This document shows positions 1-20,000 of a DNA stretch of 20,000 nt, in pieces. The notes under the pieces are model-generated. The model was not told where the DNA came from and searched no databases. It saw only the letters and a program-made list of their open reading frames with translations. Each line of letters begins with the position of its first letter. Position 1 is the first letter of the stretch. The stretch lies in the IMG/VR virus record IMGVR_UViG_3300030376_004017. One strand, given 5' to 3'. The DNA comes from an uncultured virus (IMG/VR IMGVR_UViG_3300030376_004017). Taxonomy: Duplodnaviria > Heunggongvirae > Uroviricota > Caudoviricetes. The translations under genes and the position numbers were made by a program.

Positions 1-1
1 T

Positions 2-4027: not shown

Positions 4028-4400
4028 GGTAACAGACGTATTTGATTCGCTATATTCAGCTGTAGTACAAGCTCAAAAAGAAGTTGAAGGAAAGTACATT
4101 GAGAATATTAACAAAAGTTATTTTGAAGATGGAAAGCCCAAGACCGTCACAGTTGAATTGGGGGGAAAGCCCATTGAAATTCCTCTCTTTTCACTTGTAC
4201 CGCACAACGCGCTCAAGATTGCAGAGTGCGAAATAGATTTTGAAATAGATTTGAATTTTAACAAAGAAGCTAAAGGGTGTCTCAGTAAATTACGCAGAAA
4301 CAAGATGGCTAATGTTAGAATAAAATTTGCTGGTTGTGATCAAGCTGAAGGGCTTGCGAGAATCGGTGATGGTTTAGTAAAACAAATACCTACAATATAA
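4020..4400 (+). CDS. DUF2589-like protein
   Basis: Pattern AVVQAQ...YF...IEIPLFSLVPHNALKI.E.EIDFE...EGLARI resembles DUF2589 (recalled, not searched). Overlaps the fibre gene stop. Confidence 0.7.
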   Translation: MDKVTDVFDSLYSAVVQAQKEVEGKYIENINKSYFEDGKPKTVTVELGGKPIEIPLFSLVPHNALKIAECEIDFEIDLNFNKEAKGCLSKLRRNKMANVRIKFAGCDQAEGLARIGDGLVKQIPTI

Positions 4401-4404
4401 TAAA

Positions 4405-4942
4405 ATGGCAGGAGCAGATGATGCACAATTAAAGGCTCGATTTCGTATCGTCAATCGGCTTCGAGCCGGATCCAGATGACCCGAAAAAAACGAGAACCCG
4501 CACCGTTGACGTAGAAGTTGAACGCCTTATTAAAGGACGTACTACACCGCAGAAGCAAATGGTCAAGATGCCATTACTTTCTATGGTCACGATACCCAAC
4601 CTATCTATATCAGATGTTAAAATACATTTTGATATGGAGGTTAAAAGCCATTCGGAACACAAAGATTCACACGACGACAAGCAGGAAAATCATTCAGAAA
4701 CTGAAGGTCACGCTGAAGTTAGCGGCCATTTTTGGGGGGTTGGGGTTACAGCTGGAGGCAGTCACTCATCATCTCACACTGGAACAGTTACATCACACTC
4801 TGAAAATACCCGCTCGACAGATTTTTCAGCTCGTTATTCAATAGATGTTGAAGCCACTCAAAACCCGCCAGCTGAAGGTTTGGCGCGATTTACACAGATG
4901 CTAGCATCTACGCTTGAGCCAGTTGACACCCAAGCAAAATAA
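4405..4942 (+). pseudogene. Second DUF2589-like gene with an apparent deletion/frameshift near 4435
   Basis: ATG 4405 (MAGADDAQLK) is in frame 1 and stops at 4477-4479. The DUF2589-like body (LDFVSSIGF...MPLLSMVTIPNLSISDVKIHFDMEVK...ARYSIDVEATQNPPAEGLARF) is in frame 2 from 4436, behind an in-frame TAA at 4430. Confidence 0.65.
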
Positions 4943-4945
4943 TTT

Positions 4946-5206
4946 ATGGCCTCAGAACAAGAGACAAAACAACAGGAAACCATTTTAATTAATGGGGAAG
5001 AACACAATATTAGCGATCTAACACCGCAACAGACCGCTTTTATTACACATATAACTGATCTTGATGCAAAAGCGCGTCAGGTTAATTATAACTTAGAGCA
5101 AACTTTAGCTGCTCGCGCTCATTTTATGTCGTTATTAAATGCGTCAATAGAAGAAAAGCCCGCAGCTGAAGCTGAAAAGCCAGCTGAAGAGGAGTCTTCC
5201 AGCTGA
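4946..5206 (+). CDS. Small coiled-coil phage protein (DUF6447-like)
   Basis: ILINGEEHNISDLTPQQ followed by a heptad-like helix. Similar proteins are common after fibre genes in aquatic phages. Confidence 0.6.
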   Translation: MASEQETKQQETILINGEEHNISDLTPQQTAFITHITDLDAKARQVNYNLEQTLAARAHFMSLLNASIEEKPAAEAEKPAEEESSS

Positions 5207-5216
5207 GAAAAATAAA

Positions 5217-5378
5217 ATGTTTAACTTAGACGATATAAAAGTGGGATTAGCTACAGCAGCTGGTATAACTAACTGGATGGCAAATATAGATTTGATCCTT
5301 CAGATAGCCATATCTGTAGCTAGTCTCGTTTATATTGTTCTTAAAGTAAAAGAACAGCTAAAAAAGAATGGCAGCTAA
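5217..5378 (+). CDS. Small membrane protein, holin-like (53 aa)
   Basis: Own translation: MFNLDDIKVGLATAAGITNWMANIDLILQIAISVASLVYIVLKVKEQLKKNGS. Hydrophobic segments and a basic C-tail. Confidence 0.6.
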   Translation: MFNLDDIKVGLATAAGITNWMANIDLILQIAISVASLVYIVLKVKEQLKKNGS

Positions 5379-5667
5379 AAAGAAAAGCCCAAAATCTTCA
5401 ATGAAATGCGGAGAAGTGCGTAAAAGCACTCGTTCTGATAAAAAGATAATGAAGCTTTACTGCATAGACGGTGGTAAAAAACTTGTTCACGCAGGTGCGA
5501 AAGGTTACGGAAACAATTATTCCGACGCTGCTCGTAAGTCTTTTAATGCTAGACATAAATGTTCTACAGCTAAAGCTGGTACAGCTAAACACTTAGCTTG
5601 CACTGAGCTTTGGAAAAAAGGCGGCAGGAAAACTAGCAATCCTAGTAGCCGGAAAGGTAAATACTAA
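5368..5667 (+). CDS. Lys-rich phage protein (DUF5754-like KLVHxGAKGY...RKSFxARH motif)
   Basis: ORF track. Motif is common in aquatic phage small basic proteins. Confidence 0.65.
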   Translation: MAAKKKSPKSSMKCGEVRKSTRSDKKIMKLYCIDGGKKLVHAGAKGYGNNYSDAARKSFNARHKCSTAKAGTAKHLACTELWKKGGRKTSNPSSRKGKY

Positions 5668-5831
5668 TGGCAGCTAAACAAAAACAATTAACGAATAGGC
5701 AAAAAGAAACTTTAAAAAAACACTCAGTTCATCATACAGCAAAACATATGTCAGAAATGCGTAAAATGATGAAAAACGGCAAAACTTTTACGGCAGCTCA
5801 TAAAGCAGCTATGAAAAAAGTAGGTAAATAA
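5667..5831 (+). CDS. Small basic His-rich phage protein (54 aa)
   Basis: MAAKQKQLTNRQKETLKKHSVHHTAKHMSEMRKMMKNGKTFTAAHKAAMKKVGK. TAATG stop/start overlaps at both ends. Confidence 0.75.
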   Translation: MAAKQKQLTNRQKETLKKHSVHHTAKHMSEMRKMMKNGKTFTAAHKAAMKKVGK

Positions 5832-5974
5832 TGGCAGCTAAAAAGAAAGATGCTTGTTATAATAAGGTTAAAAGCCGCTATAAAGTTTGGCCTTCTGCTT
5901 ATGCAAGTGGAGCTTTAGCTAAATGCAGGAAGGTTGGAGCTGCTAATTGGGGCAATAAATCTAAGAAAAAGTAA
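5831..5974 (+). CDS. Small basic phage protein with DACYxKVKxRYxVWPSAYASGAL motif (47 aa)
   Basis: MAAKKKDACYNKVKSRYKVWPSAYASGALAKCRKVGAANWGNKSKKK. Motif recalled from cyanophage and other marine phage proteins. TAATG coupling. Confidence 0.8.
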   Translation: MAAKKKDACYNKVKSRYKVWPSAYASGALAKCRKVGAANWGNKSKKK

Positions 5975-6216
5975 TGCCAAAAGTTCGCAAATCAAAAGAA
6001 GGTGCAGCTTTAAAGCGTTGGTTTAAGGAAGGTTGGGTAAATGTAAAAACTGGAAAAGCTTGTGGGGATGCTGATGGCGGTTATTGTAGACCTACTAAAC
6101 GAGTAAGTTCAAAAACACCTAAAACATTAGGAGAAATGTCTAAATCAGAAAGAAAAAGAAAAGTTTCTGAAAAAAAACGAACAGGCAGAGCAACTCCAGC
6201 TAGACGAAAAAAGTAA
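5974..6216 (+). CDS. Basic phage protein with LKRWFKExWV...CG...YCRPxKRVSSKTPKT motif (DUF5872-like)
   Basis: ORF track. As recalled, this motif usually accompanies the preceding one. Confidence 0.75.
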   Translation: MPKVRKSKEGAALKRWFKEGWVNVKTGKACGDADGGYCRPTKRVSSKTPKTLGEMSKSERKRKVSEKKRTGRATPARRKK

Positions 6217-6219
6217 TTT

Positions 6220-6336
6220 ATGCCATACGGAAAAAGTACAAGTGGAAGTAAAGCGGGTAAACCGCCGAAAAAAAATAAATTAAAATCTAGCAGTAAAAAA
6301 TCTTCTGCTAAGAAAATGAAACGAGGTAAGTATTAA
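6220..6336 (+). CDS. Very Lys-rich micro-protein (38 aa)
   Basis: MPYGKSTSGSKAGKPPKKNKLKSSSKKSSAKKMKRGKY. Fills the gap exactly. Confidence 0.6.
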   Translation: MPYGKSTSGSKAGKPPKKNKLKSSSKKSSAKKMKRGKY

Positions 6337-6337
6337 T

Positions 6338-6514
6338 ATGTTAAAATCAAAAACTGTTTGGACAGCTGTGACAGCTGTCGTAGGTGCAGCTTCCGGTTAT
6401 TTTACTGGCGAACTTGAAATGGCAGCTGCCTTGCAGCTGGTTGTTACAAGTGTTTTAGCTGTGTTTGTTAGACACGGTGTTAAAAAATCCGAAGACGCAG
6501 CTAGGGGAAATTAG
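6338..6514 (+). CDS. Putative holin (58 aa, 2 TM)
   Basis: MLKSKTVWTAVTAVVGAASGYFTGELEMAAALQLVVTSVLAVFVRHGVKKSEDAARGN. KSKTxW N-terminus, two hydrophobic helices, charged tail. Confidence 0.7.
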   Translation: MLKSKTVWTAVTAVVGAASGYFTGELEMAAALQLVVTSVLAVFVRHGVKKSEDAARGN

Positions 6515-6520
6515 TTAGTT

Positions 6521-6721
6521 ATGTGGATGCTTAAACTTCTGGGAATGCTAGGCGTTTTACGCGACCTAGTTTCCCAGTTGTTTAAAGTTTTCAAAAAAAC
6601 AACAGCTAATGTCAGAAGAAAAAGCAAAGATAAAGCAGTGGATGATGCCATTGCTGCTGCTCTTGGTCACGATGACCAGCTGTGCGACAGTCGATCTGAA
6701 GAACGCAGAAAGACTGATTGA
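6521..6721 (+). CDS. Putative i-spanin-like protein
   Basis: Weakly hydrophobic N-terminus then a charged helix. Overlaps an out-of-frame lipoprotein gene, as in Rz/Rz1. Confidence 0.45.
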   Translation: MWMLKLLGMLGVLRDLVSQLFKVFKKTTANVRRKSKDKAVDDAIAAALGHDDQLCDSRSEERRKTD

Positions 6722-6839
6722 AAGACATCCAGCTGGCTTTCAAGATGCTGTTCGTGCCTCCACTAATTCAGTGGAATTTGTTCGTGACGCTTTAAAAACA
6801 ATCAATCGCCTAGAGGCGGTGATTGAGCGAGAACTTTAA
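6609..6839 (+). CDS. Lipoprotein, putative o-spanin (start may be 6642)
   Basis: K-I-K-Q-W-MMPLLLLLVTMTS-C: signal peptide with lipobox Cys at 6681. Confidence 0.6.
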   Translation: MSEEKAKIKQWMMPLLLLLVTMTSCATVDLKNAERLIERHPAGFQDAVRASTNSVEFVRDALKTINRLEAVIEREL

Positions 6840-6845
6840 TTTCAA

Positions 6846-6958
6846 TAAGGGCCGACTCTAATATCGGCAAAGTTGGTTTACCATTACCCCGAAAGGGGCC
6901 ACGCCCTGCACCCTCTGCATAGTAAGCCTTTTTTGATTGGTGTAAGTGTCGGCCTTTA
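6846..6958 (+). ncRNA. Candidate structured RNA at the end of the late operon
   Basis: Stems 6846-6856/6948-6958 and 6875-6881/6922-6928 enclose the hairpins CCCC-GAAA-GGGG (6887-6898) and TGCA-ccctc-TGCA (6907-6919). G-U pairs favour the + strand. Confidence 0.45.
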
Positions 6959-6970
6959 CACTTGCTTACA

Positions 6971-7028
6971 TATATTATTATATTTATTTTTAATTTTTTA
7001 TTGACAATTAAAATAAAATATATATTCT
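6971..7028 (+). promoter_or_regulatory. Sigma70-type promoter with AT-rich UP element
   Basis: TTGACA at 7001-7006, 16-nt spacer, TATTCT at 7023-7028, preceded by 30 nt of pure A/T. Confidence 0.7.
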
Positions 7029-7037
7029 CCTTCTCTA

Positions 7038-7181
7038 GTGGGAGCAACATCAACAGGAAAACTTAAAGTAGTAGCGGTGAGCGAGAAGGTTCATAAGCTT
7101 TTAAAAGATCATTGCATTAAAAAAGGCTTAAAGATCGGCATTGCTACTGAAAACATAATAAGAAAATACTTTGAAAAATGA
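7038..7181 (+). CDS. Ribbon-helix-helix-like regulator (47 aa, GTG start, near-leaderless)
   Basis: MGATSTGKLKVVAVSEKVHKLLKDHCIKKGLKIGIATENIIRKYFEK: strand-helix-G-helix pattern. ATGA overlap with the next gene. Confidence 0.6.
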   Translation: MGATSTGKLKVVAVSEKVHKLLKDHCIKKGLKIGIATENIIRKYFEK

Positions 7182-7495
7182 CTGATCCAGAAATAAGGGA
7201 TATATCGTTGCAACAATTCACATCCTTTGCTCTGCCTAAATTTAATAAAGGTATAGAAGAGCATAACCCAAAAGGCGATAAGGGGTTGTGGAAAATGAAT
7301 GAACTTCAACTTGTTAAGGCTTTAAAGGAAGAGGCCGCAGACACTTGGTTTTACTTGAATGCTTTAGAGCAAAAGTTTTTAAAAAACAGATGCGACGAAA
7401 TTAATAAGGAATTTCAAATGAAATCCCGTAAGGATAAACAATTTCTCTCGGCGAGTGCCGAAACAGAAAACCCAGAAATCATAGAAGACGAATAA
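7178..7495 (+). CDS. Hypothetical helical phage protein (KFNKGIEEH...EEAADTWFY)
   Basis: ORF track. EExxD motif weakly recalls all-alpha NTP pyrophosphohydrolases. Confidence 0.55.
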   Translation: MTDPEIRDISLQQFTSFALPKFNKGIEEHNPKGDKGLWKMNELQLVKALKEEAADTWFYLNALEQKFLKNRCDEINKEFQMKSRKDKQFLSASAETENPEIIEDE

Positions 7496-7502
7496 AAATA
7501 AT

Positions 7503-8006
7503 ATGTTCTTAAATGCAACTGAAAGCTCTGTGAAAACAGACTTCGAGATTCACCCTAAAGGGGTGGCAAATGGTGTTTGTGTAGAAGTAGTTACACATAA
7601 CAAAAAAACAGGTGAGCCGTTTACTAAAAAGACGGCTGAAGGCGAGACTAAAAACCGGATTATTCTGGTTTTTCAAACTGATAAGACAGCAACCAAAGAG
7701 GATGGCTCTGAGGTAAACTGTGTTTATTGGGATTGGCACAATGTGCCTCAATCAATCGCTAACGAAAACGGATCGCTGCATAAGCGTCTTCGTGATTGGG
7801 AGGTTGAGATTAAAGACTTCAAAACAAAAGAAGACTTTGAAACTGCGGTTGTTGGCAGACCAGCAACTTTAGTGTTCACTCATAATGTGAGTGAGAAGAA
7901 CGGTAAAACCTACAGCAATATGACAAGCTGCACTCCTCTTGATGAAGGTGCAACTGCTTTTGTTGCTAAAGATTATCAAATCTATAACGAAGGCGCACCG
8001 TTCTAA
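7503..8006 (+). CDS. Putative ssDNA-binding protein (DUF669/NGO0469-like)
   Basis: FEIHPKG...C.EV, IILVFQ, VGRPATLVFTH...GKTYSN and a C-terminal EGAPF tail. Adjacent to an exonuclease. Confidence 0.6.
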   Translation: MFLNATESSVKTDFEIHPKGVANGVCVEVVTHNKKTGEPFTKKTAEGETKNRIILVFQTDKTATKEDGSEVNCVYWDWHNVPQSIANENGSLHKRLRDWEVEIKDFKTKEDFETAVVGRPATLVFTHNVSEKNGKTYSNMTSCTPLDEGATAFVAKDYQIYNEGAPF

Positions 8007-8878
8007 TGTTTCTGTCAGCTCAACCGAATAAGCGTGAGCTGAATGGGGATGGCGGTCATTGGTATTATCCCGATGGCCGCTCTCTTCATACAGTCCCAAA
8101 GAAAGATGGAACTGGTGAAAGAAACACCACTAAGGCTGACGCTAGAAAACTGGGTTTGTTTCCCAGTGTTACGGCAATAACAAAAATAGTTGCCAACCCA
8201 AGTCTTGATCGCTGGAAGCAAAACCAGATGCTTGAGGCTTGTGTAAATAATCCAATTGTAGGTGGAGAAGACACGGAAGAATACGGTGACAAGATGCGCC
8301 AGTTTGCTCAAAAGAAGATGGTGGATGCCAGAGCTTTTGGTTCTCTGTATCACAACGCAATTGACGAACTAAATAAAACTGGATTTCTCGACAGTAAGTA
8401 CGATGAGATAAAACCTTTTGTTAAACATTACATTCAATGGACTAGAGATCATTCTGTTTCCTTTGTTGACACCGAGTTTGTGTGTGTAAACAACAAACTT
8501 GGATACGCTGGCCAAGTAGACGGTTTAGCTGTCGTAGACGGTAAACTAACACTACTTGATTATAAGACTCAGGACGTTAAAGAAGACGCTAAAGGAAACC
8601 TTAAACCTAATTACTATGATAGTTGGGTTTGGCAGTTGGCAGCATATAAAAATGCAGATTGGGAAAACAAGCCGCCCCGAATCCAGCAAGTGATGAGTGT
8701 GGTTTTGTGTTCGCAATCACCTTGCTATCCGATTATGAAGGTTTGGACTTCACAAGAATTATCAAATGCTTGGAAGATATTCAAAGCCAGCTGCGCTATA
8801 TGGCAGCTTACAAACAAATTCAACCCCGCTGAAAATGCTAAGTTGATAAAAGAAAATGGGGAAGCAACAAAGAGATAA
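8006..8878 (+). CDS. PD-(D/E)XK (RecB/Cas4-like) phage exonuclease
   Basis: PSVT, GSLYH, YAGQVDG, LLDYKT and QLAAY motifs. Confidence 0.85.
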   Translation: MFLSAQPNKRELNGDGGHWYYPDGRSLHTVPKKDGTGERNTTKADARKLGLFPSVTAITKIVANPSLDRWKQNQMLEACVNNPIVGGEDTEEYGDKMRQFAQKKMVDARAFGSLYHNAIDELNKTGFLDSKYDEIKPFVKHYIQWTRDHSVSFVDTEFVCVNNKLGYAGQVDGLAVVDGKLTLLDYKTQDVKEDAKGNLKPNYYDSWVWQLAAYKNADWENKPPRIQQVMSVVLCSQSPCYPIMKVWTSQELSNAWKIFKASCAIWQLTNKFNPAENAKLIKENGEATKR

Positions 8879-9233
8879 AGGAAAACGTGGGGAAAGAGCT
8901 TGGCGGGACGAACTTCGTGCCGCTGGGTTCGATCCCGAAACGACCTACCGAACAAACCAATTTAGCGGCAAGTGTCCTGACGGTTCTCCTGACGTTCATT
9001 GCGGAGAGCTGCCAGACTTACACTTTGAAGTTAAAAACGTCGAGAAGCTTAACGTGTGGGCCGCTATGGACAGAGCTTTGGACGATACCCCCTTCGGGAA
9101 ACTGGCTGTGGTAGCCCATACAAAAAATAACCAAGGATTTTTAGTGACAATGACCAGCGAAGCTTTCTTTGACATCGTGAGAGAAAGCACCTTCGTAAAA
9201 CCTATGAAAAAAAATAAAGAAAATGACCATTGA
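8856..9233 (+). CDS. Holliday-junction-resolvase-like PD-(D/E)XK endonuclease
   Basis: QRDKGKRGER, PD, HFEVKNVEKLNVW motifs. Confidence 0.75.
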   Translation: MGKQQRDKGKRGERAWRDELRAAGFDPETTYRTNQFSGKCPDGSPDVHCGELPDLHFEVKNVEKLNVWAAMDRALDDTPFGKLAVVAHTKNNQGFLVTMTSEAFFDIVRESTFVKPMKKNKENDH

Positions 9234-9768
9234 AATGCCGGATGAAATATTAAAATCTAAATTATCACTGTCAGCCAAGCTGATCTGTTCAGTGATTTAC
9301 AGTTACCCTAGAGCGCAGCAAAAAGAGATCGCAAAGATTCTCGGAGTGACTAGACAAAGCATCTCTTCGGCCACTAGAGATGCCAAAAAACACAACCTCG
9401 ACAGCTTTACCTTATGTAAAGAATCCTTTACCTTATGTAAAGAATCCTTTACCCCAGACCCAGTAGTAAGTAAGTTAGTAGAAGAGGAGAAAGAAACCAA
9501 AACCCTAAAAGCAAAAACTCCGACGAAGGAGGAGGTTGAAGAGTACGGGGCCAAGCAGGGCGCGGCGGCAATCGTAGATGATTTTTTCCAGACCTATTCG
9601 GACAGAGGTTGGATGTCCAACGGTGAACCAATCAAAAACTGGAAGGCAATGTTTCGCTGGTGGAAAAACAACAAGCTTAACAATCAGCCAGCTGGAAATA
9701 CTAAACCAAAAAAGAAAATGTCCACAGAGGATGTCTTTTACGAGATGGACGCTGAAATCTACGGATGA
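9223..9768 (+). CDS. Replication initiator-like HTH protein
   Basis: LSLSAKLI...QKEIAKILGVTRQSIS HTH. C-terminal PTKEEV...FF.TY...GW...IKNWKA..RWW domain. Directly upstream of dnaB. Confidence 0.75.
   Translation: MTIEMPDEILKSKLSLSAKLICSVIYSYPRAQQKEIAKILGVTRQSISSATRDAKKHNLDSFTLCKESFTLCKESFTPDPVVSKLVEEEKETKTLKAKTPTKEEVEEYGAKQGAAAIVDDFFQTYSDRGWMSNGEPIKNWKAMFRWWKNNKLNNQPAGNTKPKKKMSTEDVFYEMDAEIYG
9405..9453. repeat. 21-nt tandem repeat (2.3 copies), putative iterons/origin
   Basis: CTTTACCTTATGTAAAGAATC at 9405-9425 and 9426-9446, plus partial CTTTACC. Each unit contains the dyad CTTTAC-N5-GTAAAG. Confidence 0.7.
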
Positions 9769-9797
9769 AAATAATCCTCACAATTTTAATCATTACT

Positions 9798-11159
9798 ATG
9801 AAACCAATACAAAAAATACCAAACGACCGTGATGCCGAGCTGGGCTTAATAGGCGCAGCAATCCAAGGCAAATTTGACGATATTCGCTCCGCTGGGGTGG
9901 ATGAAACTTTCTTCCACGACCTAAAGTGCCGTGGAATGTGGAAGAGAATAGAGGAACTGGAAAGTAACGGCGCGGTCATAACACTGGACACGCTGGCTCA
10001 CCAAGCCAAAGGTGAAGGGTCTTCTTTGACTTTGCCCGATGTACTGGAAGCAGAGTCAGCGTGTCCTTCTCCGCTCAACTGGAGTTATTGGGCTGAGATA
10101 TGTGACGAAAAACGAAAGGCAAGAATAGTCCAAGAAACTGGATTAAGATTAGCAGAAGAAGCTTCAGCTGTTGAAGACGTTGAACAATTGGTTAGCACAG
10201 CTGAGTCATTGGTCTTCTCCTTAACAGACCAAGTTACAACAAAAACAGACAACAGGAGTGATTCTTTTAAGCGTATTGTAGACACGCTTGAAGAAGCACA
10301 CAATGGTGGAAGGGTTGGTATAACCACTGGTTATAATTCCATCGACAAAATCCTCGGCGGGTTGCGTGGCGGTCAGCTGGTTACTATTGCTGCGCGACCC
10401 GCTGTAGGTAAATCTGCGCTGGCTGGTAACATCGCCGAAAAGCTGGTTATGAACGGGACTCCGGTTGCTTTCTTCAGCTATGAAATGACTCAGGATGAGT
10501 TGAACCTTAGAATGCTTTGCTCGTTATCTGATACAAACCTAATTGGAGACGTTATAAACGGAGGAGTTGAGGAGTCCGGTAATCGTATGCGGATAATGAA
10601 ACAAGCCGCAAGCTATGTTCCAAAATTAAACTCAGCACCAATTCACATTGTTGATAACGGAAACCTGACAGTATCACAAATTAGGAGTAATGCACGAAGG
10701 CTGGTTAAGGACGAAGGAGTAAAGCTGATAATTGTTGATTACATCCAGCTGATTAAACCAGCCGCCGAAGATCGACGCGCTCAAAGGCACGTTCAAGTTG
10801 GAAACATAACAGCTGAACTTAAACAGATGGCAATGGAGCTTAAAGTTCCTGTGATTGGGCTAGCTCAGTTAAACCGTGGAGTCGAGGGAGAAGCTAGGCG
10901 ACCTAGATTATCTGACCTCCGTGAATCGGGTTCAATTGAACAGGATTCAGATGTAGTTGCTTTCCTTTATATTGACGACCCAGCTATGAGAGATGGCCCC
11001 AATATGTTACTCAAGCTAGCTATCGGAAAGAACAGAGCGGGAAGACAAGGAGAGGTTGATCTTGTGTTTGTGAGAAACAAGATTCGGTTTGAAGACGCTT
11101 ACCAAAAGAAACACGAAACGTGGCTGAACGAGAAAAAGAAACAACTAGCAGACAGCTGA
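9798..11159 (+). CDS. dnaB: Replicative DNA helicase DnaB
   Basis: IPNDRDAE N-terminus, AARPAVGKS, FSYEM, IIVDYIQL, LAQLNR, RPRLSDLRESGSIEQDSD, KNRAG. Start is ATG 9798 or 9765. Confidence 0.96.
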   Translation: MKPIQKIPNDRDAELGLIGAAIQGKFDDIRSAGVDETFFHDLKCRGMWKRIEELESNGAVITLDTLAHQAKGEGSSLTLPDVLEAESACPSPLNWSYWAEICDEKRKARIVQETGLRLAEEASAVEDVEQLVSTAESLVFSLTDQVTTKTDNRSDSFKRIVDTLEEAHNGGRVGITTGYNSIDKILGGLRGGQLVTIAARPAVGKSALAGNIAEKLVMNGTPVAFFSYEMTQDELNLRMLCSLSDTNLIGDVINGGVEESGNRMRIMKQAASYVPKLNSAPIHIVDNGNLTVSQIRSNARRLVKDEGVKLIIVDYIQLIKPAAEDRRAQRHVQVGNITAELKQMAMELKVPVIGLAQLNRGVEGEARRPRLSDLRESGSIEQDSDVVAFLYIDDPAMRDGPNMLLKLAIGKNRAGRQGEVDLVFVRNKIRFEDAYQKKHETWLNEKKKQLADS

Positions 11160-11536: not shown

Positions 11537-11929
11537 GTGAACACCAGCTGCGTTTTTAGGAGGTGTGTGACAAATGACATTACAGCATTTAGTGAGCTGG
11601 TTAGCGCGGTCATTGTGCAAGCGTCAATTGACTTCGTGGACGCGCACAGATTTGGACTCATTAGCCAGAACTTATCCGTCAACTCGGAAAGAGTTAATGA
11701 GGTGCTGCGAGAATCGTATCCAACAAGATGCCCCCTTCCGAAATGGATGGAACCATCAGACGTTTACAGCTGTGTCAGTTTTTTATTCGAGTCAACAGCC
11801 CTTGAGGATGTCATCCCTACCAGCTGGGAAGTCAAGCCAGACGCAGTCAGGAGAGCCGTCGCCGAAGCAGCTTTTGAAGGTAAAGCTATGAATCACTTTT
11901 TCAACTTTGAAGGGATGCACAATGAATGA
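11537..11929 (+). CDS. Hypothetical phage protein (LVSAVIVQASID motif)
   Basis: ORF track. Overlaps the next gene. Start uncertain. Confidence 0.55.
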   Translation: MNTSCVFRRCVTNDITAFSELVSAVIVQASIDFVDAHRFGLISQNLSVNSERVNEVLRESYPTRCPLPKWMEPSDVYSCVSFLFESTALEDVIPTSWEVKPDAVRRAVAEAAFEGKAMNHFFNFEGMHNE

Positions 11930-12413
11930 AAGGAAAGAGAAGGCTAAAGCATATGAGGCTGACGTTGTTCAACTTGTAAAAAGAAAGCACCCTCATTGGG
12001 CCGTAGCAGAGCCTACAAACGATTACGCAACAGTTGACGGCATCGCATACCATAACACAAACCAACAGCTTATAGCGGTCTATGAGATCAAATGTCGCAA
12101 TCAATCATTTTCAGATTTAATATCCAAATATAATTCAGAGATGCTTGTTGACGCATCCAAGCTGGAATCAATGCGGATTATTAGCAGGATGTTACGCATC
12201 CCCAGCTACCTGTTCAGCTACCTGCTCAAAGATGGTGTCGTTCTTAAAACAAAAATAACGAACGACAACGGTCAATTTATTTGCGATAAAGTTGACGCAC
12301 AACAAATTGCTCCAGCTGGGCTGGACAAAGAAAACATCAGTAAGAAAATGTCGAAAGTAAAAATTGATGGCACAGAAATTCTCTCGACATCCGAAGCTAC
12401 CGGAGCAATCTAA
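11922..12413 (+). CDS. PD-(D/E)XK-like nuclease-fold protein
   Basis: YATVDG...AVYEIKCR motif. ATG at 11922. Confidence 0.65.
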   Translation: MNERKEKAKAYEADVVQLVKRKHPHWAVAEPTNDYATVDGIAYHNTNQQLIAVYEIKCRNQSFSDLISKYNSEMLVDASKLESMRIISRMLRIPSYLFSYLLKDGVVLKTKITNDNGQFICDKVDAQQIAPAGLDKENISKKMSKVKIDGTEILSTSEATGAI

Positions 12414-12876
12414 GCAAACCGAAAAACCTTTCCTCCTTGACTCCATAAAAGGATCAACTGCAAATTTAGGATCGCTAGGCGAGATGATGGCAGCCCTAGA
12501 GCTAATGCTTAACGGCTGGGAGGTTTACACTCAATCAATCTGCAACCCTTCAAATGCTTTCGATATGATCGCAGTGAAAGGCGAGGCAATTAAGCGTATA
12601 CAAGTTAAATCTACATCTAAAAAATACAACAATGGCAACAGGAAGAATAAAAAACACATTGTAAAAGTCTGTAAAAGAGATAAAGGAGAAAAGTCTCAAT
12701 ACAGCAAAAGCGACTGTGATTTTATTGTTATTGTGGTTATGGATGAAAGCTGGTTTTTTGTTATCCCAACGGAAAAGTTCAAATCTCAAACTGTTAGCAT
12801 TTACACTAACAACGAAAACCAAGTTTCTGGCTGGGTATCTGAGTATAAAGACGCTTGGGATTTGCTTGATGATTAA
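12367..12876 (+). CDS. PD-(D/E)XK endonuclease (I-Ssp6803I / group I intron-associated-like family)
   Basis: GSLGEMMAALELMLNGWEV, FDMIA, RIQVKST, YSKSDCDF, FFVIP, YKDAW motifs. Confidence 0.8.
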   Translation: MAQKFSRHPKLPEQSKQTEKPFLLDSIKGSTANLGSLGEMMAALELMLNGWEVYTQSICNPSNAFDMIAVKGEAIKRIQVKSTSKKYNNGNRKNKKHIVKVCKRDKGEKSQYSKSDCDFIVIVVMDESWFFVIPTEKFKSQTVSIYTNNENQVSGWVSEYKDAWDLLDD

Positions 12877-13079: not shown

Positions 13080-13122
13080 AAAAAAAATCCCCCGCCAGCT
13101 GTTAAGCTAACGGGGGTGTTTT
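13080..13122 (-). terminator. Intrinsic terminator between convergent blocks, probably bidirectional
   Basis: CCCCCG (13089-13094) / CGGGGG (13111-13116) stem, extended with G-U pairs on the - strand and followed there by T8. TGTTTT follows on the + strand. Confidence 0.8.
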
Positions 13123-13222: not shown

Positions 13223-13223
13223 T

Positions 13224-13586: not shown

Positions 13587-13592
13587 AATTTA

Positions 13593-14803: not shown

Positions 14804-15161
14804 TTGGTGAAATTGCTTCGGGATTATCTTCTAATGTCTTCTTTGCAACTTCTTTGGCTATAAGATCCGTAAACCTGCAAAGGAAACAACTCGCTTTGAC
14901 AAGTAGACGAACATTTTCATTTTCGTCTAAAGCTTTATCCCAAGCTTCCTCGAACTCTTCCGGCCCTTCACTCTCCTGCATTACTTCAATAGTTTGCCTT
15001 AGTACCGAGTGAATAGCTTCAGCCAGCACGTCGCTCAAACCTTGTGAAACACACCCAGCTGACATTGCCAGCTCTGCCTTACTTGATTTGTCGAACAGCT
15101 CATCACTGTTTGTAATAGCAGTTTCAAGTGCTGCTCTTCTTAATTTATCTAAGTCTTTCAT
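14784..15161 (-). CDS. Hypothetical acidic helical protein
   Basis: ORF track. First gene after the repeated leader element. Confidence 0.65.
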   Translation of the reverse strand: MKDLDKLRRAALETAITNSDELFDKSSKAELAMSAGCVSQGLSDVLAEAIHSVLRQTIEVMQESEGPEEFEEAWDKALDENENVRLLVKASCFLCRFTDLIAKEVAKKTLEDNPEAISPIAFSRN

Positions 15162-15172
15162 TATTTTATTTT

Positions 15173-15265
15173 ATGAGGCACACGACCTCCATCAACCAAT
15201 CCAAATTGGATTGGCTGAAAGTGGGAGTGTATCTATTACTCGAAAACTAAAACAAAATGTTCAGC
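15173..15265 (-). promoter_or_regulatory. Repeated promoter-like motif plus structured leader, copy 1
   Basis: CTCCATCAACCAATCC..GGATTGGCTGAAAGTG (15187-15223) also at 18365-18400. TTACTC-N17-GTTCAGC (15236-15265) also at 18416-18445 and 19616-19645. Confidence 0.7.
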
Positions 15266-15341
15266 ACCTCCTCACCGAAGCAGTAAAATAAAACTGCTCC
15301 GGCTAAGAGTATTGCCGCCGAAAAGAAGTCAATGATAGTAT

Positions 15342-16862
15342 TCATCGTACAATCTGCCTCCCTTCGGTGAACACTTCGACCAAGTGCTTAGACAGCTGGG
15401 GAATCATTGTCTTAGGGTTCACGTTATCGATCCCTCCGTTAATTCCTACGCTTTGCGAAAATGATTTTTCAATACCCGCTTTAAAATCAGTTTCATCGCG
15501 ATAATGGTAAACAGTATCGCCAACCCCCACACAATTCCACCAATCGTGATTTGGTTGTTTAGGGTTACTTGATAATACGTTTCGCATTAAGCCGATAGCG
15601 TATACTTCAAAGCCTTGACGTTTGAGTTTATCCCATTCGTTCCCTTTGTCCCAAAAATCATCTCTTGAGGACATATCCCCGTCTGTTAACAGGATGGCAA
15701 TTTTTCGCTTCTCCCGCCTGTCCTTCATAAGGCGTAATCCCTTACCCAAAGCGCGAGGCACATCTGTACCGTCATCTGGGGCTAGGTCATTTAAGTGTGC
15801 GTTTTGCCACTTGCCACGCCATCCTTTAATTACTTTTATTTTTTCGCTGTATGCAATCAGTTGGTGCGGGATCTTCAGCTGATCCATTGATTTTGAAAGT
15901 ACAGCGGCGGCGGCGGCTGCGTAATTCATTAAGCAATGACCTCCGTGGCAATCGTGCATTGACCAGCTTTCATCGATGTAGATTTGAACGCAAGCGTCTA
16001 GTTTTTTACCTTTTCGGGTTCTTTGGTAAACGGTGTTTACGTCTGTCATTTGTGCGATGTCGTGCAATCGCGTAATGTCCAGCTGTCCACTGTCGCGGTG
16101 TCGGGTGATTCTATTACGAGCATCAGCCAATAAAGCTTTCCTTACTTTGCCAATCAGCTGGTTAGATTTCGGAAGCTCACGGTCAATTACATCCTTATTG
16201 TAATTGTCGATAAACGCTAAAGGTTTATTGTTGTGGCGTTTATTTATCCTAGCAAGCTCTCGGTCAAGTTCCTCCTCTTTTTCGCGGTCAATCTTTTCAT
16301 CGCTCCAATCAGATTGGATGCGTTCGTTTTCTTTTCCCGTTCGGTCGCCTTTCTTGCCTTCCGAGTTTGCTTCAGTATGCTCGAATTTTCCGTCATCACC
16401 TTCGACGGGATCGCCGCCTTCGCCTTCAGCTTCACTCTCGTTTTCGCCTTCGTTTTCGGTTTCGACGGGATCGCCGCCTTCGCCGTCTCCTTCTTCAGCA
16501 TCAGACAAATCTACCCAAACGTGCCAAGTAGGTTCCGGCAGATTGCGCTGTTTGCGTTTATCTTCTAGAAAGCTGTCCGGTTTGCTTGGGAGTGCTGTTC
16601 GGATGTCTAGCCATAATTTGCGGGTTAAGTCTAATGCTACGGGGCAAGAAGCAGACCCGCCGATGGTGTTTTTTTCAAAAGCGGCCAAACTGTTGGCTCC
16701 CCAAACTCTTTGAATCCAGCGATCCAGCAAAACATTAAATCGCCGACTACTAGTGTTTACAAATCTTAAAGCTTCAACTGGAGTTCTTCCTAAAACTTCC
16801 ATACGGAAACGTATCGACCAAATCATTTGGCGTTTGGCTGCTTTTGTTAGTGCAAATTTCAT
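15342..16862 (-). CDS. VWA-domain protein (CobT-like partner of a MoxR AAA)
   Basis: Acidic linker, SGQLD..RL, MIDAS DESWS, GTD, LLTDG. Confidence 0.85.
   Translation of the reverse strand: MKFALTKAAKRQMIWSIRFRMEVLGRTPVEALRFVNTSSRRFNVLLDRWIQRVWGANSLAAFEKNTIGGSASCPVALDLTRKLWLDIRTALPSKPDSFLEDKRKQRNLPEPTWHVWVDLSDAEEGDGEGGDPVETENEGENESEAEGEGGDPVEGDDGKFEHTEANSEGKKGDRTGKENERIQSDWSDEKIDREKEEELDRELARINKRHNNKPLAFIDNYNKDVIDRELPKSNQLIGKVRKALLADARNRITRHRDSGQLDITRLHDIAQMTDVNTVYQRTRKGKKLDACVQIYIDESWSMHDCHGGHCLMNYAAAAAAVLSKSMDQLKIPHQLIAYSEKIKVIKGWRGKWQNAHLNDLAPDDGTDVPRALGKGLRLMKDRREKRKIAILLTDGDMSSRDDFWDKGNEWDKLKRQGFEVYAIGLMRNVLSSNPKQPNHDWWNCVGVGDTVYHYRDETDFKAGIEKSFSQSVGINGGIDNVNPKTMIPQLSKHLVEVFTEGRQIVR
16401..16484. 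repeat. 24-nt exact duplication in the VWA acidic linker
   Basis: TTCGACGGGATCGCCGCCTTCGCC at 16401-16424 and 16461-16484 (GEGGDPVE twice). Confidence 0.85.
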
Positions 16863-16894
16863 AGTATTATTTTCCTTTCTTTTGGTTTTTGTTT

Positions 16895-18325
16895 TTAGAT
16901 TGAAAGAAGGCTTTTAACTTCTTTAGCTTCTGATGGTGTTAGTGCGTTAATTACAGTTACCTTCAAAGCTTCATCAATAGACATAGGGTCAAGTGCTTCA
17001 ATCTCCTGTCCGTATGAATCTTTAGCTTGTAAGGCTTTAGATATGTTAAGCATTGTTCTAGTGCTGGGCGGCATTGTGAGCGTTCCCGCTGTGTGTGCTT
17101 TGCGTAGGATTGAAAACTTATCAACTAAGTCTGAAGCTTGTTGGTCCGTTAATCCGTCAGCCTTCAAGATATTCAACTCTTCACGCTTGTTTAAATAATC
17201 GGCATAAACAAATCGGCAACGAGTTTTTAAAGCTCCACTTATCTGATGGCCAGAATACAAACCCGTTTCGTCAGTCAATCCGTTCATTGTGAAGATAACC
17301 AGAAAATCAGAGTGTGCGGTAATCCGTTCGCCTGTCTGCGGGATTGTTATCTTTGCGGGGTGTGCGTCTGTGTATGAGTTGACAGCTGATAGTAGCTCGC
17401 TTTGCAGCTGGTCGGCCTCGTCGAGGATTACAGCCAAACCTTCACGCGCGGCAATCGGCAAGAATTTCAGAATGGTTTTCATTACTGGGGCTCCGCTTTC
17501 GATCTCAATCGTTTTCTCAGCCACAAGCTCCGACATTGATATTCCATCACTACAGCTGATTTTTACCCAGCGACGGCCAAGCTTGTTTAAAGTTTGCTCC
17601 ACTGGGAAAGTTTTACCTGAACCACTCGGTCCACTAACAATTAGATGATTTTTGGACAAAATGCCCGTTTCAATCTGCTTAGTGGTGCGGTTCTCCCTAA
17701 AATATGGGGCAACTTTCAAGATGGGAGGCAAAACGCTTTTATCTCCGCTCGCAACCGCTCCACGAATAGAATCGCCAAGCTCGGTTTGCATCAGTGCGGA
17801 AACTGTTGCCTTCAACTCGTCATTGGCGAATTTGCCGACGGTGTTTGAAATTGCCTTTTCAATGGCATCAGGTGATTTAGTCAATTGATCTTCAAACAGT
17901 TTGCCGAAAGAATCTTTTTGAACTTCAAACGCTTCCTGTCTAACTCTGCCAACATCAAGCTGCGGGGTTTGCGGTTGAAAGATTTGTTTAAACGCTTCAA
18001 ACGCTTGCTGATCTGCTCCAGCTGGTGCGGGTGCGGGTGCTGGTGTTTTAACGGTGTTTGGAATTGCTCGCATTGCCGCGAGTTCCTGCGTTACCACTTC
18101 AGATTCTTTGAAATTATCGGCCTGAAACTCTCCAAGTTTCCCGATTGTCCTTAAATCGTCAGCTGTCAAACGCTTAAAGCCTTTGATTTTTTCGCCGTTA
18201 ATTAATTTTCTCATATCGGAAATATGATAGAATGTTTTAAGCTGCCCGAGTTCAAGTTGATTTCTCAACGCTGTTCGTGCTTCGCCTTGTGTTAAGCTGT
18301 CCCAATCTAATATGTTAGTTTTCAT
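16895..18325 (-). CDS. MoxR/CobS-like AAA+ ATPase
   Basis: Walker A GPSGSGKT, Walker B ILDEAD, AHSDFLVIFTMN, ALKTR, STR motif. Confidence 0.88.
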   Translation of the reverse strand: MKTNILDWDSLTQGEARTALRNQLELGQLKTFYHISDMRKLINGEKIKGFKRLTADDLRTIGKLGEFQADNFKESEVVTQELAAMRAIPNTVKTPAPAPAPAGADQQAFEAFKQIFQPQTPQLDVGRVRQEAFEVQKDSFGKLFEDQLTKSPDAIEKAISNTVGKFANDELKATVSALMQTELGDSIRGAVASGDKSVLPPILKVAPYFRENRTTKQIETGILSKNHLIVSGPSGSGKTFPVEQTLNKLGRRWVKISCSDGISMSELVAEKTIEIESGAPVMKTILKFLPIAAREGLAVILDEADQLQSELLSAVNSYTDAHPAKITIPQTGERITAHSDFLVIFTMNGLTDETGLYSGHQISGALKTRCRFVYADYLNKREELNILKADGLTDQQASDLVDKFSILRKAHTAGTLTMPPSTRTMLNISKALQAKDSYGQEIEALDPMSIDEALKVTVINALTPSEAKEVKSLLSI

Positions 18326-18349
18326 AGATACTTTTTATTTAATTATTAA

Positions 18350-18445
18350 ATGAGTCCAAAGAGACTCCATCAACCAATCCAAGCGGATTGGCTGAAAGTG
18401 TAGCTTTGTTATTTGTTACTCTAAAAACCAGCTGAAACGTTCAGC
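18350..18445 (-). promoter_or_regulatory. Repeated promoter-like motif plus structured leader, copy 2
   Basis: Same two elements as 15173-15265, upstream of the AAA gene. Confidence 0.7.
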
Positions 18446-18833
18446 TGGGTATCGGATCGTGTCCGTGGTCGGGGTGTCCAATTGCGCCGAATTGATAAAG
18501 AGCTTCCTCTTCTTCTCTTTCGGTCATTGCAATATCTTTTTTCAGATTATCAAAAAAGTTTAAGCCTTCTTGAATTGTGGCGGGTCTTTCCCCTAATCCG
18601 CCAAACTGCATTTGCTCGGTTTTGATTCGGAAACCTTCCCAAGTTGCTTTTGCAATGTTAATCGCTGTTGCGGCTTGGGATTTAGTCGCTTTTACGCTGA
18701 ATTCGTCAGCTGCAAACTCAATTGCTGAATCAAAGGCCTTTCTCCAACAACAAGAAAGCTCGTAATTATCAACGGCCCAATCTGCCATTAGCTTAATTTC
18801 CTCTTCTGTTAGGTGTCTTGTTTTCATTCTCAA
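18441..18833 (-). CDS. Hypothetical protein
   Basis: ORF track. Probable ATG start at MKTRHL. Confidence 0.6.
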   Translation of the reverse strand: MRMKTRHLTEEEIKLMADWAVDNYELSCCWRKAFDSAIEFAADEFSVKATKSQAATAINIAKATWEGFRIKTEQMQFGGLGERPATIQEGLNFFDNLKKDIAMTEREEEEALYQFGAIGHPDHGHDPIPS

Positions 18834-18975
18834 TCGGTGTTAGTGCGTTAATTACAGTTACAAGCCTTCTTTCATCCTTTATTTGCTGCCACAAAATGAA
18901 AACTCCCGCGCCTAAAAAGAAAATCAAAGCAGGAATTGCGAATACGATTAAAATGATAGTTTCAAAGGTTGTCAT
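18793..18975 (-). CDS. Small single-pass membrane protein
   Basis: IILIVFAIPALIFFLGAGVFILW hydrophobic stretch. GAAAGGA upstream. Confidence 0.6.
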   Translation of the reverse strand: MTTFETIILIVFAIPALIFFLGAGVFILWQQIKDERRLVTVINALTPIENENKTPNRRGN

Positions 18976-19332
18976 TTATTTGTTCCTTTCTTCTGTGTGG
19001 ATTCTTTCGTAGGTTTTAGCAATTGCTTCCTTTTTCGCTTCCTTCCTCTTTGCTTCTTCAAAGCCTAGAATAAAAGCGTTAATCCTGTCATAAGTTTCGC
19101 GCTTGGTTCCTCTAGATTGACCAAGTGGCAAGCGTTGCCCTCCTCCTTCATTGCAGATTCTCGCCAGCTGCCAACCTCCGTAGGCTCCATCCAAGACGTA
19201 CGTGCCGACGTTGGCGGTTAATCTTTGTCCAGCGGCGGCGGTTTCTGGGCGGCTGTATGGTTTCACGTTTTCGCCTGTGAGTTGGTTTAGTCTTACGACT
19301 AAGTCTCTGAGTTGTTTCATTGTGATTTGCAT
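18976..19332 (-). CDS. Hypothetical phage protein (LDGAYGGWQL...NEGGG...TKRE)
   Basis: ORF track. AAGAAAGGA RBS-like element upstream. Confidence 0.7.
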   Translation of the reverse strand: MQITMKQLRDLVVRLNQLTGENVKPYSRPETAAAGQRLTANVGTYVLDGAYGGWQLARICNEGGGQRLPLGQSRGTKRETYDRINAFILGFEEAKRKEAKKEAIAKTYERIHTEERNK

Positions 19333-19346
19333 TTTATTATCCTTTC

Positions 19347-19559
19347 TTAGTTTGTTGTTACTGCTTTATCTATAACCAATTCAAGGGCTTCAACTTCGTC
19401 TCTCAAGCCGTCAACGTGGCTTTCTGCGTATTCTTCGCCGTTTTGGTCAATTAGGTTGCTGTAGTTTTCATTAGCTCTGCGATAGTCTCGCCTTGCGTCT
19501 TGCAACTGCTCAAGCTTTGTAGTTATCCAATTGATTTTATGATCTAAGTTTTCTTTCAT
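19347..19559 (-). CDS. Hypothetical coiled-coil protein
   Basis: ORF track. First gene of the - strand block. Confidence 0.65.
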   Translation of the reverse strand: MKENLDHKINWITTKLEQLQDARRDYRRANENYSNLIDQNGEEYAESHVDGLRDEVEALELVIDKAVTTN

Positions 19560-19613
19560 AGTATTATTTATTTATTAATTAAGCGGGGCTTTTACTTTAT
19601 AGCTGCCGCTATA

Positions 19614-19663
19614 TATTACTCGAAAAATGCAATAAAATGTTCAGCTGTCCAGCTGTCCAGCTG
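19614..19663. promoter_or_regulatory. Promoter-like motif copy 3 plus tandem (CAGCTGTC)2CAGCTG in the divergent intergenic region
   Basis: TATTACTCGAAAAATGCAATAAAATGTTCAGC, then CAGCTG at 19642, 19650 and 19658. Confidence 0.65.
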
Positions 19664-19676
19664 CTAGGGTGTTGCA

Positions 19677-20000
19677 ATGTCTCAAATTGATTGGGAAAAG
19701 GGGCGGCGTTTATACCTTCAAGGGAAGTCTCCGCTGGAAATATCAAAGCAGCTGAAATGCAATAAAAGCAGCGTTTGCCGCAAGATTAAGTCACAAGATT
19801 GGGAACGTGCTGAAACGGTGCTTGCAAGTGTTGCAAGGGGTGTTGTCCCGTCGCAAGAATCGGGGGAATTGGTCAAAGTGGATAGAGAGAGGTCGGCTGA
19901 TAATGTTAAAGCAAGAATACAAGACGATGTTGCGGCGGTTCTGGATGCCCTTGAGGCGATTTGTCCAGCTGATCTGGGGTTGGGTCAACTAGCAACTAGG
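19677..20000 (+). CDS. HTH protein, probable terminase small subunit (3'-truncated)
   Basis: Not in the ORF track. ATG 19677 is open to the window end: MSQIDWEKGRRLYLQGKSPLEISKQLKCNKSSVCRKIKSQDWER...; the DW...Y..G....EI...L......V.......W pattern is typical of TerS N-termini. Confidence 0.65.
   Translation, partial: MSQIDWEKGRRLYLQGKSPLEISKQLKCNKSSVCRKIKSQDWERAETVLASVARGVVPSQESGELVKVDRERSADNVKARIQDDVAAVLDALEAICPADLGLGQLATR

What the first reader, a model, noticed from the sequence alone, without database searches (positions are those of the whole stretch)
4057..19971. CAGCTG is strongly over-represented, but absent from the tail-fibre gene
Seen: my manual count is about 54 CAGCTG sites between 4057 and 19971, against roughly 2-4 expected from composition. 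They occur in genes on both strands and in intergenic DNA (terminator 13096, 11471, promoter region). I found none in bases 1-4020, although that gene is very Ala-rich. Established: CAGCTG is the PvuII recognition palindrome, and phages usually avoid such palindromes. Inference: the motif is positively selected, for example as a methylation mark, a self-recognition or packaging signal, or a protein binding site. The fibre gene would then be a recent import or a module exchanged too often to accumulate sites.
Basis: partly seen in the sequence, partly recalled or inferred. Interest (0 to 1): 0.75.

Follow-up and report, generated by a model that had tools for sequence, protein, structure and literature searches.

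The report
Phage clade hoards CAGCTG, fibre excepted
A group of uncultured phages removes most short palindromes from its DNA but keeps one, CAGCTG, about every 300 bases, except in the tail-fibre gene, which it swaps with phages that lack the word; the pattern resembles the unexplained HIP1 repeat of cyanobacteria, here seen in a virus.

Summary
Confirmed. There are 54 CAGCTG at 4057-19971; dinucleotide shuffles give 5.9. In genes the count is 50 against 9.4 after synonymous-codon shuffling. The fibre gene has 0 against 5.4, so it is depleted.

The excess is clade-wide: CAGCTG is the top hexamer in 23 of 27 DnaB relatives at 42-58% GC. It fills all three frames and the spacers, and it skews dipeptides (QL 141 vs 62). 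Close relatives keep in-motif codons more often than the same codons elsewhere (0.90 vs 0.80), but over long distances positions turn over and only the density persists.

The fibre void recurs: 2 of 253 possible sites are used, against 403 of 955 in core genes. Fibre homologues sit in other phage backbones that lack CAGCTG (1 site in about 190 kb), and one shares 81.5% DNA identity with window 2189-4401. The module is exchanged and is blank for both CAGCTG and CATG.

No phage methyltransferase was found. The host is probably Verrucomicrobiota, but its genome could not be reached. Best reading: a host-imposed, HIP1-like force, probably methylation-linked (about 50%). A phage-encoded reader is the main rival.

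The parts
4057..19971 (.). 54 dispersed CAGCTG palindromes, about one per 295 bp, in genes of both strands (all frames) and in spacers
2..4027 (+). Tail fibre/spike gene (5' end outside the window; PHROG tail spike, Pfam Peptidase_S74); CAGCTG-free, CATG-free, GTAC 1 vs 15
2189..4401 (+). Segment 81.5% identical to the CAGCTG-free phage G006: fibre 3' half plus the first DUF2589 gene
4057..4062 (.). Site in the DUF2589 gene where G006 has the synonymous CAGCAG; the same holds at 4869
4020..4942 (+). Pair of DUF2589 genes that travels with the fibre (90% and 65% aa identity to G006 copies); 3 of 3 permitted positions used
19642..19663 (.). Three CAGCTG at 8-bp period just upstream of the terminase small subunit gene; G015 keeps one CAGCTA and two CAGCTG here while the DNA further upstream diverges
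19677..20000 (+). Probable terminase small subunit (3' end outside the window; weak PHROG hit, E 8e-4)
18428..18448 (-). Terminator-like hairpin whose stem is two CAGCTG copies, followed by a T run (z -3.9)
13089..13116 (-). Terminator-like hairpin between the converging gene blocks, one arm holding CAGCTG (z -6.2)
9765..11159 (+). DnaB-like helicase, used as clade marker; 6 sites
11922..12413 (+). PD-(D/E)XK-fold protein conserved across the enriched clade; closest folds are Hjc resolvases (Z 11.3, rmsd 2.5, 111 aligned); specificity unknown
12364..12876 (+). PDDEXK_5 nuclease, also present in the CAGCTG-free phages G006 and G007 (31-34% identity)

Best explanation
CAGCTG behaves as a HIP1-like iterated palindrome of this phage clade. 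SHOWN: some force raises the gain rate or lowers the loss rate of the word wherever the protein sequence allows it, holding about 42% of permitted positions filled while individual sites come and go; the tail-fibre module is exchanged with other phages that purge CAGCTG, and it lacks both CAGCTG and CATG. INFERRED: restriction-type purging is fast and CAGCTG build-up is slow, so a module that keeps moving between the two phage types stays blank. INFERRED, less securely: the force comes from the host, probably a Verrucomicrobiota lineage, in which CAGCTG is methylated or bound but not cut. The likeliest form is methyl-directed repair or recognition at the central G-C that favours the site-bearing strand, acting on a clade that is largely temperate and so spends time in the host chromosome. 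The descriptive part I put at about 0.9; the confidence given is for the host-imposed mechanism.
For: Excess after codon shuffle 50 vs 9.4 and after a shuffle that also forbids the purged motifs, 39 vs 11.2 +/- 2.9. Top hexamer in 23 of 27 DnaB loci; 20 of them at 6-14x with CATG and CCWGG at 0. All 23 terL loci at >=78% identity are enriched 2-11x and all 35 at 53-65% have 0-1 site; 58 of 62 loci examined, 4 under 5 kb dropped. Spacers of five genomes hold 27 sites vs 1.4 expected. QL 141 vs 62 and S[CW] 58 vs 37, against 152 vs 103 and 29 vs 38 in CAGCTG-free phages. Codon kept 661/735 in motif vs 4139/5203 outside, 9 of 10 pairs in that direction. Saturated pairs 430/874 vs 444/1068. Fibre 2/253 vs core 403/955 in 10 genomes or loci. 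13 of 13 fibre-homologue loci carry 1 site in total, and in 6 of them the fibre region also lacks CATG while the backbone has it. Synonymous CAGCAG or CAGCGG in G006 where the window or L058 has the site. G016 has its two fibre sites in the first 180 nt only. Outer one-off variants are raised (55 vs 36) and inner ones are not (42 vs 59), as Elhai describes for HIP1 (PMC4390886). No methyltransferase in the window, in G016 which covers the rest of a very close relative's genome, or in complete G002. Integrase beside an attP-like tRNA-Cys in relatives; its named homologues are Verrucomicrobiota at 40-41%. The enriched word differs between sublineages (TAGCTA, TCCGGA, TGGCCA), as expected if different hosts impose it.
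Against: No host genome was seen, so neither host enrichment nor a host methyltransferase is shown; the host call rests on one integrase family at about 40% identity. The window phage itself has no integrase at the usual position yet is as enriched. Density (one per 300 bp) is above the one per kb at which Elhai's ratchet should saturate, and spacing is random relative to permitted positions. The weakly enriched G004 has no fibre void (4 sites in 3.7 kb vs 45 in 32 kb). Some core genes are low too (RusA-like 2/18, the 7503 gene 2/10; the C-terminal 1500 aa of the G016 internal virion protein 2/15). A biased scan of 79 other viral loci found none with the same CAGCTG-rich, CATG-free, CCWGG-free signature. 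The pairs share lineages, so their p-values are optimistic.
Confidence: 0.5

Rival explanations
1. A phage-encoded protein reads CAGCTG (for example the clade-wide PD-(D/E)XK protein at 11922-12413, or the terminase), so that dispersed sites help replication, recombination or packaging of the phage's own DNA.
For: The 11922 protein is in every enriched locus that covers the region and was not found in 4 sister-group records. The triple site before terS is kept in G015, and G003 has an AGCT-rich patch at the same place. No unrelated virus with the same signature turned up.
Against: The fold is closest to structure-specific Hjc resolvases, with PvuII only at Z 6.2. The protein is also present where enrichment is weak or the word differs (G002, G004). 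A distant phage inside G011 (terL 31% identical) has CAGCTG at 4.1x with no hit to this protein. The sister-group search used one sequence, and two of those records are incomplete.
Confidence: 0.2
2. The fibre gene is actively kept free of sites so that it escapes site-directed repair and stays mutable or free to recombine, rather than being blank because of its travel history.
For: The void recurs in at least three non-homologous fibre types and in G018 and G002; the fibre is below chance.
Against: Fibre homologues are equally blank in phages whose whole genome lacks the word. New sites do appear in exchanged DNA (L058 fibre, DUF2589 genes). Fibres also show a GTAC deficit that several cores lack.
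Confidence: 0.1
3. Neutral, Vsr-like conversion of T:G mismatches back to a methylated CAGCTG inflates the count.
For: Slower loss and enrichment in spacers are also expected from biased repair.
Against: The transition neighbours that should be drained are not: CAACTG/CAGTTG 13 vs 13.4 and TAGCTG/CAGCTA 21 vs 11.8; the drained one is the transversion neighbour CAGCAG, 3 vs 14.7. Differences between close relatives fall on all positions.
Confidence: 0.08
4. CAGCTG is a Chi-like, oriented recombination signal or part of a longer uptake sequence.
For: C before and G after the word are raised about 1.6-fold.
Against: No polarity (CAGCTGG 226 vs CCAGCTG 224 in 10 co-oriented sequences) and no longer consensus.
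Confidence: 0.04
5. By-product of codon use, Ala/Gln-Leu content and the purge of other motifs.
For: Correction lowers the excess from 14x to about 4-5x; other 'allowed' palindromes rise 2-6x in relatives.
Against: 39 observed vs max 18 in constrained shuffles; about 19x in spacers; holds from 40% to 60% GC.
Confidence: 0.03

Closest known systems
HIP1 (GCGATCGC) and the alternate HIPs of cyanobacteria (Elhai 2015, PMC4390886; Xu et al. 2018, PMC5861425)
   Same: Short palindrome far above expectation in all frames and spacers; kept more than matched codons; one-off variants raised at the outer positions; central G-C; no settled function.
   Different: Different, shorter word; seen in a phage clade, not a chromosome; 6-14x rather than 15-300x; no cognate methyltransferase in the same genome; no regular spacing found; cleanly absent from one exchangeable module.
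DNA uptake sequences of Neisseria and Pasteurellaceae (recalled, no call)
   Same: Dispersed word in turnover equilibrium that bends protein sequence and forms terminator stems as inverted pairs.
   Different: Those are 9-10 bp, non-palindromic and tied to competence; this is a 6-bp palindrome with no longer consensus.
Restriction-site avoidance in phages (reviewed in PMC8410138; PMC4687349 for hosts), with CAGCTG as the PvuII site (recalled)
   Same: Explains the loss of CATG, CCWGG and about 30 palindromes here, and of CAGCTG in the fibre-sharing and sister phages.
   Different: The clade shows the opposite sign for CAGCTG.
Phage P1 pac site, a cluster of methylated GATC in the terminase region (recalled, no call)
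   Same: Cluster of a palindromic methylation-type word next to the terminase small subunit gene.
   Different: Accounts at most for 3 of 54 sites; methylation and cleavage here are untested.

Membership tests
HIP1 / alternate HIPs | The word is GCGATCGC or a described alternate | tested here: not met
   The word is CAGCTG with no longer consensus; no paper held both 'highly iterated palindrom' and CAGCTG
HIP1 / alternate HIPs | Observed/expected above about 16 (Xu 2018 cut-off) | tested here: inconclusive
   14x outside the fibre by order-1 and 5x after codon shuffle; about 19x in spacers; an 8-mer cut-off does not transfer directly to a 6-mer
HIP1 / alternate HIPs | Present in all reading frames and in non-coding DNA | tested here: met
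HIP1 / alternate HIPs | Sites conserved above matched-codon controls | tested here: met
   0.90 vs 0.80 over 10 non-independent pairs, one pair reversed; weak at saturation
HIP1 / alternate HIPs | One-off variants biased to the outer positions | tested here: met
   outer 55 vs 36, inner 42 vs 59 in window genes
HIP1 / alternate HIPs | Cognate DNA methyltransferase in the organism | not testable with these tools
HIP1 / alternate HIPs | Quasi-periodic spacing | tested here: inconclusive
   Gaps in 62 genes match permutation of permitted positions; phage genomes are too short for a chromosome-scale period
DUS/USS uptake sequences | Non-palindromic 9-10 bp core | tested here: not met
DUS/USS uptake sequences | Sequence-specific DNA uptake by the host | not testable with these tools
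   host uncultured and not identified below phylum
Chi sites | Oriented, non-palindromic word with strand bias | tested here: not met
   226 vs 224
PvuII-type restriction-modification system carried by the phage | N4/N6 or C5 methyltransferase gene | tested here: not met
   0 of 5 records for PF01555 and PF00145, controls rang; G015 negative for PF01555; window ORFs negative
PvuII-type restriction-modification system carried by the phage | PvuII-like endonuclease | tested here: inconclusive
   No Pfam hit in 35 window ORFs; 11922 protein vs PvuII Z 6.2, rmsd 4.8, 109 aligned, below Hjc; PF09225 rang in 0 of 5 fibre-sharing phages and in no control

The most novel reading that the evidence does not exclude
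The host chromosome is not enriched, and the clade itself has evolved a genome-wide 6-bp self tag read by its own protein (or uses a host methylation mark as a licence for replication or packaging), with each sublineage using a different palindrome and the shared fibre pool staying tag-free.
Probability: 0.25. Interest if true: 0.82.

Novelty: new variant of a known kind. Interest (0 to 1): 0.64.

Why it matters
Phages are expected to lose palindromes; this clade does so for dozens of them and accumulates one, enough to change protein sequence. If the force is host-imposed, the clade is a small, fast-evolving reporter of a HIP-like system in an uncultured host, and it offers a natural test of how such words are gained (sites can be watched appearing in newly acquired DNA). 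The contrast between core and fibre also gives a simple marker of module exchange: the fibre records the restriction landscape of every phage type it passes through, which links otherwise dissimilar phages to overlapping hosts.

Tried and rejected
Own genome: none held. Host search: the DnaB scan of species genomes gave 2 irrelevant weak hits; metagenome loci are not held as records; no sequencing run with library word WGA was listed (this is 'none listed', not 'none exists'); the tRNA-Cys pattern found 4 viral loci only; cultured phages match at about 31-36% (DnaB) or weaker; the gmd search gave no named hit; the capsid atlas search gave only viral clusters. G011 looked like a provirus with host flanks but is two phages joined. 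AAA-gene and L075-fibre scans found nothing. The 17-nt tandem pattern gave 16 loci, none related. The test of whether TGGCCA is missing from sister-group fibres failed because those loci barely reach the fibre. The terL tree supports the CAGCTG-free group (97/93) but has no reliable root, so gain versus loss is not settled. The window-only Fisher test used mistyped counts and is not used. Literature: searches found no description of CAGCTG excess in a phage; the library lacks most subscription papers and bioRxiv supplements are closed, so REBASE-type methylome tables for Verrucomicrobiota may exist unseen.
Full report
OBSERVATION. The window has 54 CAGCTG between 4057 and 19971 and none before; 200 dinucleotide shuffles give 5.9, max 13. 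It is the top hexamer of 4028-20000 under order-1, order-2 and maximal-order Markov models. Shuffling synonymous codons gives 9.4 +/- 2.8 for the non-fibre genes against 50 observed, and 5.4 +/- 2.0 for the fibre against 0. A swap chain that keeps codon use and also forbids the motifs the window lacks gives 11.2 +/- 2.9 (max 18 of 38 samples) against 39 in the same 30 ORFs. Spacers of five genomes hold 27 sites in 7.8 kb against 1.4 expected. The same window has no CATG, no CCWGG and about 30 six-base palindromes at zero outside the fibre, so CAGCTG is the exception in a heavily purged genome.

WHAT THE WINDOW IS. A podovirus-type phage segment: tail fibre with S74 chaperone, two DUF2589 genes, small lysis-region genes, exonuclease, RusA-like resolvase, DnaB, two PD-(D/E)XK proteins, RlpA-like protein, a VWA/AAA pair and the start of terS. 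G016 overlaps the right end at 99% over 96 nt and the fibre start at 92%, so it shows the rest of a very close relative's genome; it has 57 sites, no CATG, and all 16 ORFs of 80 aa or more match ORFs of the window, G001 or G002, none of which is a DNA methyltransferase in Pfam (89 of the relatives' ORFs scanned). PF01555 and PF00145 were absent from 5 of 5 relatives including complete G002; PF01555 was found in 1 of 5 further records, G013, which belongs to the CAGCTG-free sister group. Several relatives carry an integrase beside a tRNA-Cys or its 3' part; the window does not. The named homologues of that integrase are all Verrucomicrobiota, at about 40% identity. One exonuclease relative is labelled 'uncultured Limnobacter', which I take as a binning artefact without having tested it. 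Some near-identical contigs carry the TARA label in their public names, so a marine setting is likely.

THE CLADE. CAGCTG is the top hexamer in 23 of 27 DnaB loci; in 20 it is 6-14x with CATG and CCWGG at zero, across 42-58% GC. By terL, 23 of 23 loci at 78-100% identity are enriched 2-11x, and 35 of 35 at 53-65% have 0 or 1 site; 4 of 62 loci under 5 kb were dropped. Many of these loci are near-copies. The weakly enriched sublineages raise other words as well (TAGCTA about 4x in G002/G003, TCCGGA about 6x in G004), and the sister group raises TGGCCA and GATATC 3-5x. A distant phage inside chimeric G011 has CAGCTG at 4.1x and GCTAGC at 4.2x. The tree separates the CAGCTG-free group (97/93) but cannot be rooted.

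HOW THE SITES BEHAVE. Among 10 close pairs, a codon inside CAGCTG is kept in 661 of 735 cases against 4139 of 5203 for the same codons elsewhere; 9 pairs go this way and one goes the other. Among pairs saturated at fourfold sites, a permitted position is filled in 430 of 874 cases when the partner has the site and in 444 of 1068 when it does not. So loss is about halved, positions turn over, and the filled fraction stays near 42%. Proteins are affected: QL 141 against 62 and S[CW] 58 against 37, with 74 of 141 QL written CAGCTG; CAGCTG-free phages show 152 against 103 and 29 against 38. There is no strand polarity and no longer consensus, and no regular spacing. Outer one-off variants are raised and inner ones are not; the transition neighbours that a Vsr-like repair would drain are not drained. 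Two terminator-like hairpins use the word, and a triple copy before terS is kept in G015, the one strongly enriched relative that covered it.

THE FIBRE. In 10 genomes or loci, fibre-module genes fill 2 of 253 permitted positions against 403 of 955 in core ORFs; their own codon shuffles predict 24.6 (three fibre types, members 40-55% identical, so not independent). Thirteen viral loci encode homologues of the window's fibre; apart from the fibre and the DUF2589 pair their ORFs do not match this clade at E 1e-6, and four whole records show only scattered matches in small or accessory genes. These loci, about seven backbone types, hold 1 CAGCTG in about 190 kb, as part of a general purge of 21-27 palindromes. 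Their backbones contain CATG, but in 6 of 13 the fibre region does not. Window 2189-4401 is 81.5% identical to G006, and where the window has sites at 4057 and 4869 G006 has the synonymous CAGCAG; L058 has one site inside the fibre where G006 has CAGCGG. G016's two fibre sites lie in the first 180 nt, the likely capsid-anchoring part. The simplest reading is two-way exchange of the module, with fast removal of restricted words and slow gain of CAGCTG; direction and timing are not shown. Against a clean rule: G004 has no void, and a few core genes are low as well.

MECHANISM. Shown: excess, slower loss, turnover, protein-level effect, module exchange, no phage methylase. Inferred: the force is host-imposed and methylation-linked. 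Elhai's model has G-methyl-C-directed repair acting as a ratchet that builds palindromes and leaves outer one-offs (PMC4390886, section 3.4, first of two parts read); CAGCTG has a central G-C, and PvuII-type methylases modify that C (recalled). The lineage-specific change of word also fits different hosts. The model predicts saturation near one site per kb, which is exceeded here. The rival is a phage reader: the 11922-12413 protein is clade-wide and has a PD-(D/E)XK fold (pLDDT 92), but it is closest to Hjc resolvases and its distribution does not match the word exactly. No host genome could be reached.

KNOWN SYSTEMS AND PAPERS. Works like HIP1, but is not a member: different word, lower excess, no methylase in the same genome. 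Seen: PMC4390886 (passages, one section part), PMC5861425 (passages), PMC13756078 (abstract and outline), PMC8410138 and PMC4687349 (passages), PMC8919816 (supplement search only: five marine genome genes whose closest listed restriction enzyme recognises CAGCTG), PMC9516812 (supplement search, no hit). Uptake sequences, Chi, Vsr and P1 pac are recalled. Ten searches found no report of this excess in a phage.

VERDICT. Real, clade-wide and maintained; the fibre gap is explained by module exchange; the cause is open. New variant of a known kind, interest 0.64.

Noticed in passing
window 1-20000: CATG is wholly absent (0 vs about 36 by codon shuffle) and CCWGG too; CAGG/CCTG falls to 0.05-0.6x across the clade. 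Strong restriction pressure or a self-encoded nuclease; not resolved.
   Followed up: partly
window 4405-4560: The second DUF2589 gene lacks about 100 nt that L001 and L058 have near its start, so the 207-aa frame is broken and only a 127-aa ORF (4559-4942) remains.
   Followed up: partly
window 2700-3850: The fibre's S74 chaperone domain is split by a long Glu/Val/Thr/Pro-rich repeat insert; a related stretch occurs as a separate gene after the fibre in G001 and L076.
   Followed up: no
window 6840-8787: A 1.9-kb stretch without CAGCTG (promoter region, 7178 gene, 7503 gene); low in most relatives, but permitted positions are few.
   Followed up: partly
window 15165-15230 and 18365-18400: A near-identical ~35-nt element with an inverted repeat lies upstream of two leftward gene blocks; possible promoter or operator. 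Seen in the sequence, not tested.
   Followed up: no
L047:247-317, L066:5879-5952, L067:5569-5639, L075:6151-6221: A full tRNA-Cys beside the integrase; L076 and L078 keep only its 3' part. Likely attachment site and the best handle on the host.
   Followed up: partly
G001, G002, G004 (L047, L048, L053): Relatives carry GDP-mannose dehydratase, a second epimerase, several DXD glycosyltransferases, a WcbI-like gene and a dNMP kinase next to replication and head genes; the window lacks them. Virion or DNA glycosylation is possible.
   Followed up: no
L048:1664-2218: G002 encodes an Ogg-type HhH DNA glycosylase.
   Followed up: no
G011 28412-76471: The 92.5-kb record is two different phages, the inner one bounded by a 1162-bp inverted repeat; probably an assembly chimera.
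   Followed up: partly
L141-L177; L134-L137; G008: Other palindromes are raised in related or fibre-sharing phages: TGGCCA and GATATC; TCCGGA and TGATCA; AGCGCT, ATCGAT and TCCGGA.
   Followed up: partly
L247, L196, L215: Unrelated viral loci with a dispersed CAGCTG excess (19 vs 2.4, 14 vs 1.6, 20 vs 3.7) but without the CATG/CCWGG purge; picked by a motif scan, so biased.
   Followed up: no
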